NCBI GenBank assembly: GCA_951406725.2
Contig: OX597837.1
Location: 5,642,001-5,706,000, forward strand
Length of the DNA: 64,000 nucleotides
Source: Octopus vulgaris
Lineage: Eukaryota
Direction of reading: 5' to 3'
The notes under the pieces were generated by a model, which did no database searches, was not told where the DNA came from, and saw nothing but the letters and a program-made list of their open reading frames with translations. The position numbers and the translations under genes were made by a program. Shown here piece by piece: positions 35,011-38,910 of the stretch. How positions within the stretch are numbered: position 1 is the first letter of the stretch; each line of letters starts with the position of its first letter.

Positions 35011-35158
35011 GAATGAGAGAGCAGTGCATGCTATCAAAGTGTCACTGGGTTAAAATATACGAAGCCCAGTACACCCGTCATGACTACCCGTCTGCTAAGA
35101 GTACACCAGGCACATGCATCACAACCATATGTACGCGACATGGTGAATATCTATCAGT
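35011..35158 (-). mobile_element. Probable retroelement 3'UTR fragment embedded in TAA/TTG repeats
   Basis: Non-simple segment bounded on both sides by triplet repeats inside the R4-like stack; no coding remnant, so assignment is by context. Confidence 0.45.
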
Positions 35159-35230
35159 TCTTATTGTTATTATTATTATTATTATTATTATTATTATTAT
35201 TATTATTATTATTATTATTATTATTATTAT

Positions 35231-35430
35231 ATGTTTGACTTTTGCTTTATATTTGTGCAAGTTGGTTCCAAGTCTCACCCAGAGGCCCCAAGAGAAACAG
35301 GTTGGAAGTTCGTGTTGTCATGCCTAGTGTGCCATATATTTGGTTTTGTATTTAGTGAATGTCTAAAAAAAAAAAACGAAAATTATGTTTGTTTTAAAAC
35401 TTGAGATTACATAGAAAGTATTTTGCGTAT
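35231..35430 (-). mobile_element. R4/Dong-like element 3' end (subfamily B)
   Basis: Minus strand RKILSM* plus a 3'UTR ending gcaaaagtcaaacat-(aat)n; same family as 37881-38311. Confidence 0.85.
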
Positions 35431-35450
35431 AATATTATTATTATTACTAT

Positions 35451-36390
35451 TCAGTAGTTTTATTTTTATAGCGTGCTTTCACTTCACTACCGAGCGCAGC
35501 TCTGTGTGCCTTGGGTATGTGCTGTGATTTGTTGTGATGCTCTGATGGTTATTGTATGGAAAGTGTTCTGCGTAGGATGTGTGCAGTGCCTAGTAGTGCA
35601 ATTTTCTGTATGTTATATGTGTTTGTAAGTCCTGGTGTTTTTGTTATGTATTTGTCTGAATATTTTTTTATCATGCCTAATGCACCTACTATGATAGGAA
35701 TTGTTTCTGTTTTCAGGTTCCACATTCTAGTTACCTCTATTTCCAGGTCTTTGTATTTTGAGAGTTTCTCCATTTCTTTTAGAGACACGTTGTCATCTGC
35801 CGGTATTGATACATCAATTAGAAAGCATTTTTCTTCTTCATGATCTCTGACAACTATATCTGGTCTGTTGGCCTTAATTTCTCTATCTGTGTGTATCGGC
35901 ATATCCCAGAGTATGGTTGCTTTCTCGTTTTCTGTGATCTTTTCTGGTGTGTGCCTATACCATCTTTTTTCTGTTGTTATTCCATAATGTTGGCATAGCT
36001 TCCAATGTATGTAGGTTCCAACTCTGTCATGTCTGTGAATATATTCCTTCTTAGCCAGGACTGGGCAGCTAGAGATAATATGATTTATTGTTTCTTGTCC
36101 ATCTCCACATATTCTGCAGTTACTTGTAATATTTCTTTTCATTACATGTTTTTGGTAATTTCTGGTGGGGAGGCTTTGGTCTTGTGCTGCAATTAAAAAT
36201 CCCTCTGTTTCTGCTTTGAGTCCTGAGCTTCTCAACCATTGCTGGGATTTTTCTTTGTCTATTTCTTTTGCGTTTAGTTTAGTGCAGTATTTACCATGAA
36301 GGGGCTTTTCTTGCCATCGTTTTATCATGGCTCGTTGCTGTTCTATTTTAGTTTGGATTTCATTTGTTTTATAGCTTTTGTTGTTTCTTC
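35451..36390 (-). mobile_element. 5'-truncated R4/Dong-like RLE non-LTR retrotransposon (subfamily A)
   Basis: Open 259-codon frame plus about 100-bp 3'UTR; both ends abut (TAA)n on the sense strand. Confidence 0.9.
35549..36328 (-). pseudogene. RLE retrotransposon ORF C-terminus: CCHC zinc knuckle and PD-(D/E)xK restriction-like endonuclease
   Basis: CRICGDGQETINHIISSC, RHD, RPDIVV..CFLIDVSIP..EKLSKY, IPIIVGALG, QKIALLGTAHILRR. No RT domain (5' truncated); a frameshift lies just upstream of the Met. Confidence 0.9.
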
Positions 36391-36479
36391 ATTATTATTA
36401 TTATTATTATCATCATTATTATTATTATTATTATTATTATTATTATTATTATTATTATTATTATTATTATTATTATTAT

Positions 36480-36615
36480 GATATGTTTGACATTTGCTTT
36501 GTATTTGTAGAAGCTGACTCCGGTCTCACACACAAACCTCAAGAGACAACAATTTGGTGTTATGCCTAGGGTGCTACTGCTACTGTGATTCCAGCTGTCA
36601 CCGCTGGTTCTGCTT
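36480..36615 (-). mobile_element. R4/Dong-like 3'UTR fragment (subfamily B-like)
   Basis: atgtttgacatttgctttgtatttgt...gtctcac..caagagac matches 35231-35310. Confidence 0.75.
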
Positions 36616-37299
36616 GTAGTAGTAGTACTTGTAGATTCCGTCACTGATCCAGCTCTGTTGTTTATTGTAGTAGTAGTAGTAGTAGTAGTAGTAGTAGTAG
36701 TAGTAGTAGTAGTAGTAGTAGTAGTAGTAGTTGTTGTTGTTGTTATTGCAGTCATTTTTTCTTGCTCTGTTTTCACAGTTTTCCTTGCTGGTGTTGTTGT
36801 TTTCGTTACTGCTATTGTGATTAATCATATATTTACTCTCGTGGTTGCTGCAGCTGTTGTTTTTGTTCTTGCTGTTGCTGTTTAACGCAAAGGCAGACTT
36901 ACTCCACCAGGACAGTGATAACTCATATCTTTTATACATATCTTTTATCTTTAATTATCTCAGCCGTTCTGGGACACCAGCTTTGAGAATTTCAGCCGAA
37001 CTAACACATGCATATATAGTAACCTCAATCCTTTCTATATTAAACAAAATGAAGTAGATTGACAAATTTATTTTTTGCACCTGTTGAAGACACACGAGAT
37101 GTGGAAATATCGTTCAGTAGATAACAATGACATTCTTCTTTTAATTTTGACTCTATATTTTATTATTATTAGTAGTAGTAGGAGTAGTAGTAGTAGTTGA
37201 AGCAGCAGCAGCAGCAGCAGCAGCAGCAGTAGCAGCAGCAGCAGCAGTAGCAGTAGTAGTAGTAGTAGTAGTAGTAGTAGTAGTAGTAGTAGTAGTAGT

Positions 37300-37770
37300 A
37301 TTTTCCCCTTCTTTCTTCAAATATTCTTCCGTTTCTCGCCGGGTGTTTTCCGTACACCTAGGGCAGAGAAGCTCATTGTATGCACTCCCAGACTACACAC
37401 GCAAATTCACATGTAAAATATGTATTTAAATATTAATAAATAAATAAATTCATGAATGAATGAATGTTGTTTTCACAGCGATACTGCTCTTCTCAGTACA
37501 TGAGCCGTTCCAGTTGACACAATTTTTTGCACTCCCTGTAGGGATAGTAAGCCTGGTATCATTTTCAAATAGGTTTCAGCACCTTTTTTTTATCATTCCT
37601 AGAGATCCTACAACCATTGGTACTGTAGACGCCTTGAGATGCCATACTTTTTCAATTTCTATTAGCAAGTCTTTATATTTACTCATCTTGTCAAATTCTT
37701 TCGCCGCTATATTGTGATGGCAAGGAATAGTCATGTCAGTTAATAAACACATCCTTTTCGTCTTATCTTT
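37300..37770 (-). mobile_element. R4/Dong-like RLE fragment (subfamily C)
   Basis: Minus: CLLTDMTIP..KEFDKMSKYKDLLIEIEKVWHLK..VPMVVGSLG..QKIVSTGTAHVLRR*, then a 3'UTR abutting (TAC)n. Confidence 0.85.
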
Positions 37771-37880
37771 TATAATAATAATAATAATAATAATAATAAT
37801 AATAATAATAATAATAATAATAATAATAATAATAATAATAATAATAATAATAATAATAATAATAATAATGATAATAATAA

Positions 37881-38311
37881 TATAACGATCTTGAAATAGA
37901 AATCAGCAAAATGTGGAAGCTGAAGACTAAAACAATACCTGTTGTCATAGGTGCCCTGGGAATGATAGCGAAAGGGACTGATTGCTACCTAACTCAGATA
38001 CCAGGAAACCCCAAAATGGCAGAAATTCAAAAGATAGTGCTCATGGGAACTGCTCATATCCTACGCAAAATACTCTCTATGTAATCCCAAGGTTTAAAAC
38101 AAATTTTTTTTATTTTTATTTTTATTTTTTATTTTATTTATTATTTTTTTTTATTAATTTTTATTTTTTAATTTTATTATTTTTATGTATTAGACATTCA
38201 CTAGTACAACACCAAAAAAAACCCCAAAAAACCCCCCAAATATATGGCACAGAACTTCCAACCTGTTGTCTTGGAGCCAACATGTACAGACATAAAGCAA
38301 AAGTCAAACAT
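37881..38311 (+). mobile_element. R4/Dong-like RLE fragment (subfamily B) in opposite orientation
   Basis: YNDLEIEISKMWKLKTKTIPVVIGALGMI..QKIVLMGTAHILRKILSM* plus 3'UTR; flanked on both sides by plus-strand (AAT)n. Confidence 0.9.
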
Positions 38312-38535
38312 AGAATAATAATAATAATAATAATAATAATAACAATAATGATAATAATAATAATAATAATAATAATAATAATGATAATAATAATAATAAT
38401 AATAATAATAATAATAATAATAATAATAATAATAATAATAATAATAATAATAATAATAATAATAATAATAATAATAATAATAATAATAATAATAATGATA
38501 GTAATAATAATATTATTATCATTATTATTATATAC

Positions 38536-38910
38536 ACAACATATTAGATTGTTGGAAAAGGAAACTTCCTAACATTGTGCTACAATTAACCTTAGATGTC
38601 AAGAACCCTCCTAAGCACCTTAGCTGTCCCTAATAACACTGTTTTCTGAAGCTGCTCTAAACTGAGTTTTATGCCTATTTCCTCTAGCCGTCTGTTCAAA
38701 TCTTTAAGGATAGTTCATAATCCACCTATAATTACTGCTGTACATTTTACACGCATTTTCCGTAGTCTCTATAATTCAATTGCTAGGTCCTGGTACTTTG
38801 CTATTTTTTTTCTATACCTCTCATATTGATTTTCTCCTCATTTGGGACTCAAAAGTCAATTATCCTGCTGTTTCTATTATCTTTATCTACCGCTACTAAA
38901 TCAGACCTTT
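38536..38910 (-). mobile_element. R4/Dong-like RLE fragment (subfamily E)
   Basis: Minus: RSDLVAVDK..IIDF*VP..IAKYQDLAIEL..QKTVLLGTAKVLRRVL. Its 5' end fuses to the giant (ATT)n array. Confidence 0.85.

What the first reader, a model, noticed from the sequence alone, without database searches (positions are those of the whole stretch)
35011..38910. Stack of about 7 R4/Dong-like retrotransposon 3' ends from several subfamilies, each bounded by (TAA)n-type repeats
Seen: fragments at 35011-35158, 35231-35430, 35451-36390, 36480-36615, 37300-37770, 37881-38311 and 38536-38910, separated mostly by triplet repeats. Four encode clearly divergent versions of the same RLE C-terminus (KY.DL.IE, P...G.LG, QK....GTA..LR). 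All keep the 3' end and are 5'-truncated. Orientation follows repeat polarity: the single plus-strand copy sits where the repeat reads (AAT)n on the plus strand. Established: Dong elements of the R4 clade insert into (TAA)n by target-primed reverse transcription. Inference: a self-renewing landing pad in which each insertion leaves targets on both sides, colonised repeatedly by at least 4 lineages.
Basis: partly seen in the sequence, partly recalled or inferred. Interest (0 to 1): 0.75.

Follow-up and report, generated by a model that had tools for sequence, protein, structure and literature searches.

The report
Stacked Dong retrotransposons in AAT repeats
Six cut-off copies of a known kind of jumping gene, plus one piece of a non-coding element that likely rides on their enzymes, sit side by side in runs of the repeat AAT, and such pile-ups are common throughout this genome, so the site is ordinary.

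Summary
The seven fragments are real. Six are 5'-truncated R4/Dong-like retrotransposon ends from four lineages (36-60% amino-acid identity). The seventh (35011-35146) is not a Dong end but the tail of a ~555-bp non-coding element (E). They form two clusters (4+3), not one. Genome-wide, 271 of 299 3' ends are followed by sense (AAT)n, truncated 5' ends usually abut (AAT)n too, and 72 of 146 copies elsewhere share their tract with another element (119 of 124 co-oriented). So targeting and stacking hold, but the locus is the upper tail of a genome-wide pattern, and Dong/(TAA)n targeting and octopus Dong activity are in print; this scan also noted such stacking in another genome. 'Self-renewing' is shown only weakly: length-weighted targeting without any gain of target also fits. 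Less ordinary points: E (order 36,000 copies) behaves as a Dong passenger without a tRNA head or an identified partner; a tRNA-SINE flanks the same tracts in opposite polarity; and the single inverted copy sits on an ATT seed from the neighbouring element's coding sequence.

The parts
34755..34967 (+). tRNA-type SINE (S) whose 3' end runs into the degenerate (ATT/GTT)n tract that bounds cluster 1; opposite polarity to the Dong copies
   Evidence: 79% to another real copy over 216 nt; A/B-box-like motifs in that copy; 3' flank ATTATTGTTGTT
35011..35146 (-). F1: last ~136 nt of non-coding element E (~555 bp, fixed 5' start)
   Evidence: 94% to E positions 420-555; no ORF; no RNA family on E in an Rfam scan, no tRNA
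35231..35435 (-). F2: family B 3' end (last codons plus 3' UTR)
   Evidence: 84-88% blocks shared with F6, best other copy 87%
35452..36392 (-). F3: family A, youngest copy; zinc knuckle, RLE and 100-nt 3' UTR, open frame 279 aa
   Evidence: 99.6% to other genomic copies; zf-RVT E=4.7e-6; 65,870 first-look candidates
36481..36575 (-). F4: old family B 3' UTR remnant
   Evidence: 78% to F2 over 76 nt; best other copies 84-87%
36576..37299 (.). Spacer between the two clusters: degenerate (ACT/AAC/AGC)n plus about 300 bp of non-Dong sequence, part of it another repeat
   Evidence: 85-89% hits in L154, L116
37300..37780 (-). F5: family C (subfamily C1) 3' end with one frameshift; its 5' break falls on the family's own internal ATTATTAT motif
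   Evidence: 90% to C1 copies; C1 copies read GATATTATTATA-AAAGAT at this point
37772..37880 (+). (AAT)~36 tract shared by the 5' ends of F5 and F6
37879..38313 (+). F6: family B 3' end, the only inverted copy; 67-aa open RLE end
   Evidence: 97% nt over the coding part to L004; 99% aa matches genome-wide
38314..38526 (.). (AAT)~65 tail of F6 meeting the short (AAT)~6 tail of F7 (polarity switch)
38527..38910 (-). F7: old family D 3' end with stops and a frameshift
   Evidence: 82-85% to the other top copies; 36-38% aa to F3, F5, F6
38909..43552 (.). Perfect (TTA)1548 run at the 5' side of F7
   Evidence: longest perfect run in 1.4 Mb of random genome is 47 units

Best explanation
The locus holds six 5'-truncated R4/Dong-like retrotransposon copies of four lineages and one piece of a non-coding element, which likely arrived one at a time by target-primed reverse transcription into (AAT)n tracts that survive on both sides of each insertion. 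Shown: RT plus zinc knuckle plus RLE architecture of long copies of families A, B and C; sense (AAT)n at 3' junctions and at most truncated 5' junctions; co-orientation; stacking genome-wide. Inferred from R2/R4 biology: the protein (probably through an N-terminal Myb-like domain and the RLE) nicks the (ATT)n strand, primes cDNA from the RNA 3' end and usually stops early; longer tracts draw more insertions. Element E has the same junctions, so it likely uses the same machinery in trans. Inferred order in cluster 2: F7 first, F5 into F7's tail and cut off at its own ATTATTAT motif, then F6 into that motif on the other strand, with tract growth.
For: 3' flank sense (AAT)n: 240 of 266 ends in search-anchored loci and 31 of 33 in 140 random 10-kb stretches; (ATT)n 1 of 299; random 24-mers AAT-like 112 of 20,000 under a stricter rule. 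5' flank of truncated copies: A 27 of 35, C 15 of 21, B 13 of 19, E 18 of 31, old D 10 of 31, full-length E 32 of 40, locus-edge cases dropped. Other triplet tracts away from AAT touch such an element in 3 of 243 cases against 57 of 179 AAT tracts. Same-tract neighbours: 72 of 146 anchors; 119 same and 5 opposite orientation; 104 different and 20 same family. A 1235-aa single ORF with RVT_1 E=1e-29; R2 structures are distant relatives over RT to RLE. Age order F7 85%, F5 90%, F6 97% matches the nesting order. TAA targeting by Dong in insects, molluscs and cnidarians is stated in PMC7998251 and PMC3812793 (passages).
Against: No named Dong or R4 sequence was retrieved, so clade placement rests on architecture and target. 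No empty allele of this locus was seen (uninformative). F5's 3' flank is (ACT)16, not (AAT)n. Old family D has 5' (AAT)n in only 10 of 31. E shows no sequence match to any of the Dong-like family references tested. Anchors were top-scoring hits, biased to copies like the window's.
Confidence: 0.87

Rival explanations
1. Strong self-renewal: each insertion adds (AAT)n units (during reverse transcription or by later slippage), so occupied tracts attract further insertions by positive feedback. This would add to the best explanation and does not exclude it.
For: Uniform choice among tracts is rejected (p about 1e-65); models with a gain of 10 or 20 units fit (p=0.35, 0.13). AAT units rise with element number (33, 64, 78, 92 for 1 to 4) while units per tract stay 16-21, near the empty mean of 20. 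Young A/C copies have 5' tracts of median 24 and 3' of 20 (5' longer in 30 of 44, p=0.004); summed mean 45 against 35 expected from length-biased empty tracts (P=0.047). About 100 units flank F6 where the inferred seed was 2-3 units.
Against: Length-weighted targeting with no gain also fits (p=0.11), and a one-weight-per-tract model does not (p=0.0005). In the random sample alone a first, cruder count was Poisson-like. The 5'/3' asymmetry is absent for B, D and E. Contagion and heterogeneity give similar count distributions.
Confidence: 0.5
2. The (AAT)n runs are element-made 3' tails (as for RTE microsatellite tails), and clustering is passive accumulation in tolerated regions.
For: Every family ends in AAT; RTE-made microsatellites are known (PMC2887409, search listing only).
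Against: Copies truncated at scattered internal points carry sense (AAT)n at the 5' junction; neighbours are co-oriented 119 to 5.
Confidence: 0.07
3. The stack arose by local duplication or by co-transfer (read-through or template jumping) of several elements at once.
For: Small 5' duplications of element sequence occur at some junctions; 20 of 124 neighbours elsewhere are of the same family.
Against: The three B copies differ in age and break point and match distant loci better than each other; ages span 85-99.6%; neighbour pairs occur in nearly all family combinations.
Confidence: 0.04

Closest known systems
Dong (Bombyx mori), DongAg, DongBg and Darwinula Dong1/2 (R4/Dong clade)
   Same: Single ORF with RT and RLE, a conserved N-terminal helical block with Myb/SANT-like fold hits, (TAA)n target (PMC7998251 and PMC3812793 passages).
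   Different: Here about ten lineages share one target in one genome and stack. No direct sequence comparison with the named elements was possible, and a 5' ribozyme like Dong's (PMC3774820 passages) was not found.
Octopus Dong-R4 LINE families
   Same: PMC13282606 (parts 1-2 of 3 read) lists 5 recently active Dong-R4 families with 1129 insertions; PMC9115989 (passages) notes a full-ORF Dong consensus in O. bimaculoides. Young families A, B, C are probably of this set if the host is an octopus, which I infer from recalled repeats only.
   Different: What I read does not describe the (AAT)n target, stacking, strand rule or passenger E; those libraries and supplements were not seen.
R2 SIDEs (non-autonomous elements moved by an RLE retrotransposon)
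   Same: Short, non-coding, with the partner's target and 5' junction variation (PMC3414825 abstract).
   Different: E matches neither end of any tested family (5' ends were available only for A and C) and is very abundant, order 36,000 copies from 18 in 1.4 Mb.
R2 (28S rDNA-specific)
   Same: RT-thumb-CCHC-RLE layout; E about 1e-35 to solved R2 proteins.
   Different: No N-terminal zinc fingers found; microsatellite target; far more distant than the Dong-like hits at 46-57% identity.

Membership tests
R4/Dong clade | One ORF with RT, C-terminal CCHC knuckle and restriction-like endonuclease | tested here: met
   1235-aa ORF in L297/L298; RVT_1 and zf-RVT; alignment to R2 through the RLE. Long copies seen for A, B, C; D only as a broken RT-RLE stretch.
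R4/Dong clade | Insertion into (TAA)n with repeat on both sides, fixed polarity | tested here: met
   271 of 299 3' ends; 5' junctions A 27/35, B 13/19, C 15/21, D 10/31
R4/Dong clade | Divergent N-terminal Myb/SANT domain and no N-terminal zinc fingers | tested here: inconclusive
   Conserved block in 56 of 120 homologues; four-helix model, pLDDT 88.7; Foldseek nothing at E<=0.001; VIA rows include Zeste, R2 residues 147-215, NgTRF, ISWI SANT, TRF1, GT-1 at Z 4.3-5.3 and Sap1 at 6.7, below the level the tool calls specific; no zinc-finger Pfam hit in the N-terminal part
R4/Dong clade | RT phylogeny grouping with named Dong, R4, Rex6 against R2, NeSL, HERO, CRE | not testable with these tools
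   No named reference among three homologue searches and one cluster look-up; the tree holds unnamed or generically named relatives only
R4/Dong clade | 5' HDV-like self-cleaving ribozyme | tested here: inconclusive
   Rfam scan of the full-length A copy L035 gave no ribozyme hit; no dedicated motif search was run
SINE (for element E) | Head derived from tRNA, 5S or 7SL with A and B boxes | tested here: not met
   ARAGORN 0 of 4 loci; no Rfam hit on E; no A-box by pattern
SINE or SIDE (for element E) | 3' end shared with a partner LINE | tested here: inconclusive
   No match longer than chance to references of A, B, C, C1, D, F-J; the family list is not complete
Non-autonomous TPRT element (for element E) | Non-coding, fixed ends, scattered 5' truncation, partner's target | tested here: met
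   35 of 100 copies start at base 1 and 57 within 30 nt, the rest at scattered points; none of the 12 with a non-AAT 5' flank shares unique upstream sequence; 78 of 86 3' ends followed by (AAT)n

The most novel reading that the evidence does not exclude
The (AAT)n microsatellites of this genome form a shared niche that grows with use. About ten ancient Dong lineages and an abundant headless passenger (E, order 36,000 copies, moved in trans with no sequence likeness to its partner) insert on one strand; a tRNA-SINE seeds or enters the same tracts on the other; insertion lengthens the tract, and element-internal ATT motifs start new targets.
Probability: 0.35. Interest if true: 0.55.

Novelty: new member of a known kind. 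Interest (0 to 1): 0.3.

Why it matters
The locus itself is ordinary. The genome-wide pattern gives a simple account of part of this repeat landscape: Dong-like copies and E cover about 1.8% of random sequence, and 93 of 179 AAT tracts touch one of them or the SINE. It offers a testable case of many RLE lineages sharing one target and of an abundant passenger for an RLE enzyme, which bears on how these proteins choose template RNA. It also warns that AAT microsatellite markers here often have repetitive flanks.

Tried and rejected
F1 as a Dong 3' end: rejected. Local duplication: rejected. Empty-allele test with public reads and contigs: uninformative; contigs break at the repeats and the raw runs gave 0-157 reads. 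Named Dong/R4 reference: not found; the two original papers were not held. Rfam on E and on the A 5' end: only low-scoring hits on simple repeats. Foldseek on the N-terminal domain: no match. First island count in the random sample looked Poisson but used incomplete element spans; it was redone. The family B reference and hence 65 held 775 nt of flank; the rerun with a clean reference gave the same neighbour counts and nearly the same tract counts, but the 5'-junction table and the other-triplet controls were not rerun. The careful tree did not finish; the quick tree was used. One search's output was swamped by repeat hits and not used for counts. The idea that the SINE sits only at the downstream end of stacks was rejected: it occurs at both ends. 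No host gene was recognised among long ORFs of the window (not a gene prediction).
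Full report
Observation. The region holds seven element fragments at about the stated places. By DNA comparison they fall into five families: A (F3, 35452-36392, minus), B (F2 35231-35435 minus, F4 about 36481-36575 minus, F6 37879-38313 plus), C (F5, 37300-37780, minus), D (F7, 38527-38910, minus) and E (F1, 35011-35146, minus). 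F3, F5, F6 and F7 encode the same endonuclease C-terminus at 36-60% pairwise identity. They form two clusters of 4 and 3 with about 720 bp between them. A tRNA-type SINE on the plus strand closes cluster 1, and a perfect (TTA)1548 run follows cluster 2.

What the coding families are. The own genome (2.8 Gb) gave 52,832-65,870 first-look candidates for three protein queries, of which 150 each were scored. Family C has copies with one 1235-aa ORF carrying RVT_1 and a weak zf-RVT hit. Family A is about 3.97 kb and aligns to solved R2 proteins from RT through the endonuclease at E about 1e-35. Close homologues are mostly 46-57% identical, with names from a coral, a shrimp and insects. An N-terminal block is conserved in 56 of 120 homologues and folds as four helices, with several weak Myb/SANT-type structural neighbours (Foldseek none). 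That agrees with the divergent Myb domain reported for R4/Dong (PMC7998251, passages) but does not prove it. No named Dong or R4 was retrieved, so clade placement rests on architecture and target. In a quick tree of 35 rows, A, B and C are not sister lineages. About ten lineages were seen in all loci.

F1 is something else. Copies of E share a fixed start and a length near 555-570 bp, with no ORF. Of 100 copies, 35 start at base 1, 57 within 30 nt, and the rest at scattered points. There is no tRNA (0 of 4 loci), no RNA-family hit and no match to any tested Dong-like reference. Its junctions are those of the Dong families: 78 of 86 3' ends followed by (AAT)n and 32 of 40 full-length 5' ends preceded by it. 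I infer a non-autonomous passenger, working like an R2 SIDE (PMC3414825, abstract) but failing the tests for a SINE head and for a shared partner end. Eighteen copies in 1.4 Mb suggest an order of 36,000.

Targeting. I used 146 loci anchored on top hits of A-E (4 self loci dropped from 150) and 140 random 10-kb stretches. Sense (AAT)n follows 240 of 266 and 31 of 33 3' ends; (ATT)n follows 1 of 299. Truncated 5' junctions abut sense (AAT)n in A 27 of 35, C 15 of 21, B 13 of 19, E 18 of 31 and D 10 of 31, after dropping copies that run off the locus; many exceptions in A and C are short duplications of element sequence. Because break points are scattered, this repeat is not a tail. 57 of 179 AAT tracts touch such an element (61 same polarity, 4 opposite) against 3 of 243 isolated tracts of other triplets.

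Stacking is general. In the random sample 14 of 33 ends had another within 1.5 kb, against a mean of 2.0 and 0 of 5000 random placements reaching it. Occupied tracts held 1 (31 cases), 2 (7) or 4 (1) elements. Among anchors, 72 of 146 shared a tract, 36 with two or more others and 13 with three or more; 119 of 124 neighbours were co-oriented and 104 of 124 of another family (a few extras are rearranged pieces of one copy). The window's clusters of 4 and 3 are therefore in the upper tail but not outside it.

Self-renewal. That the target survives on both sides is shown. Whether insertion adds target is open. Uniform choice among 158 tracts is rejected; length-weighted choice without gain fits (p=0.11), as do gains of 10 or 20 units (p=0.35, 0.13); equal weight per tract does not (p=0.0005). 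For 44 of 54 young A/C copies with both flanks complete, the summed tract (mean 45 units) exceeds the length-biased expectation (35, P=0.047), and the 5' tract is longer in 30 of 44 (p=0.004); B, D and E show no asymmetry. Reads and contigs could not show an empty allele.

The inverted copy. F5 breaks the polarity rule. Its 5' break falls exactly on a motif that C1 copies carry in their coding sequence (GATATTATTATA then AAAGAT), and on the far side of F6 the short (AAT)6 tail of F7 runs straight into ATTATT. The simplest reading is that F5 entered F7's tail in the normal direction, was cut at this motif, and F6 then used the motif on the other strand, with growth to about 36 and 65 units. Identities to best other copies (85%, 90%, 97% in the coding part) fit this order. 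A pre-existing mixed-polarity tract with microhomology joining is the alternative. F5's (ACT)16 3' flank still ends in a few AAT units and is probably repeat turnover.

The SINE. 53 of 179 AAT tracts touch the tRNA-type SINE, 51 in opposite polarity and 2 in the same, against 17 of 243 other triplet tracts and 7.7% of random intervals. It lies at either end of stacks (random sample 13 of 35 downstream and 9 of 37 upstream in opposite polarity; background about 2% per polarity). Whether it seeds the tracts or enters them is not resolved.

What is known. TAA targeting by Dong in silkworm, mosquito and snail is stated in PMC3812793 (passages) and for insects, molluscs and cnidarians in PMC7998251 (passages). 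Active Dong-R4 families in octopus are in PMC13282606 (parts 1-2 of 3), with mentions in PMC8967140 and PMC9115989 (passages). PMC3774820 (passages) shows a 5' ribozyme in Dong. PMC5786205 and PMC4758252 do not mention Dong, and PMC4640811 only in a reference (passages). Eight searches showed no paper on multi-lineage stacks, on E or on the SINE polarity, but the library lacks most subscription papers and Repbase, and I opened no supplements; the octopus repeat library may already list E. The host being an octopus is my recall from its repeats and comes from no call.

Verdict. A real feature and a largely correct first reading of a known mechanism; new members of a known kind, with an ordinary locus. 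Interest 0.3; the passenger, SINE and growth reading has probability about 0.35 and interest 0.55 if true.

Noticed in passing
window 38909-43552: Perfect (TTA)1548 run with no variant unit; the longest in 1.4 Mb of random genome is 47 units, though Dong-anchored loci hold runs of 280 (L031) and over 211 (L050). Real recent expansion or assembly artefact.
   Followed up: partly
window 26400-26650 and 55560-55900: A second tRNA-like repeat with an (AAT)n tract inside it, two copies in the window; another possible source of Dong targets.
   Followed up: no
window 12758-12960: Old internal Dong-like fragment (plus strand) joined to an antisense SINE and an (ATA)n tract at 13136-13261.
   Followed up: partly
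L035:2197-2199 and L036:2321-2323: Two near full-length family A copies share an in-frame stop at the same place next to an A-run where L034 has a frameshift; no fully open A copy was seen among those fetched.
   Followed up: no
L253:3950-4100; L268, L271, L274, L281, L287: Short tandem duplications of the element's own 5'-most sequence at 5' junctions, as expected from template jumps.
   Followed up: partly
L085, L086, L087, L091: Four family D loci carry the same D copy followed by the same old A-like fragment at the same spacing, suggesting a segmental duplication or a co-mobilised pair.
   Followed up: no
P0001, P0081, P0106: Beetle gene models that contain repeated RT-RLE blocks, one mixing two families, suggesting tandem Dong-like stacks in that genome.
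   Followed up: no
P0123, P0134: Two Dong-like proteins carry an extra Pfam domain PF02338 (recalled as an OTU-like protease).
   Followed up: no
window 50031-50402 (minus): Degenerate open frame that looks like a Tc1/mariner transposase fragment (recalled resemblance).
   Followed up: no
window 17703-18003: 30-bp minisatellite, 10 copies, 92% matches.
   Followed up: no
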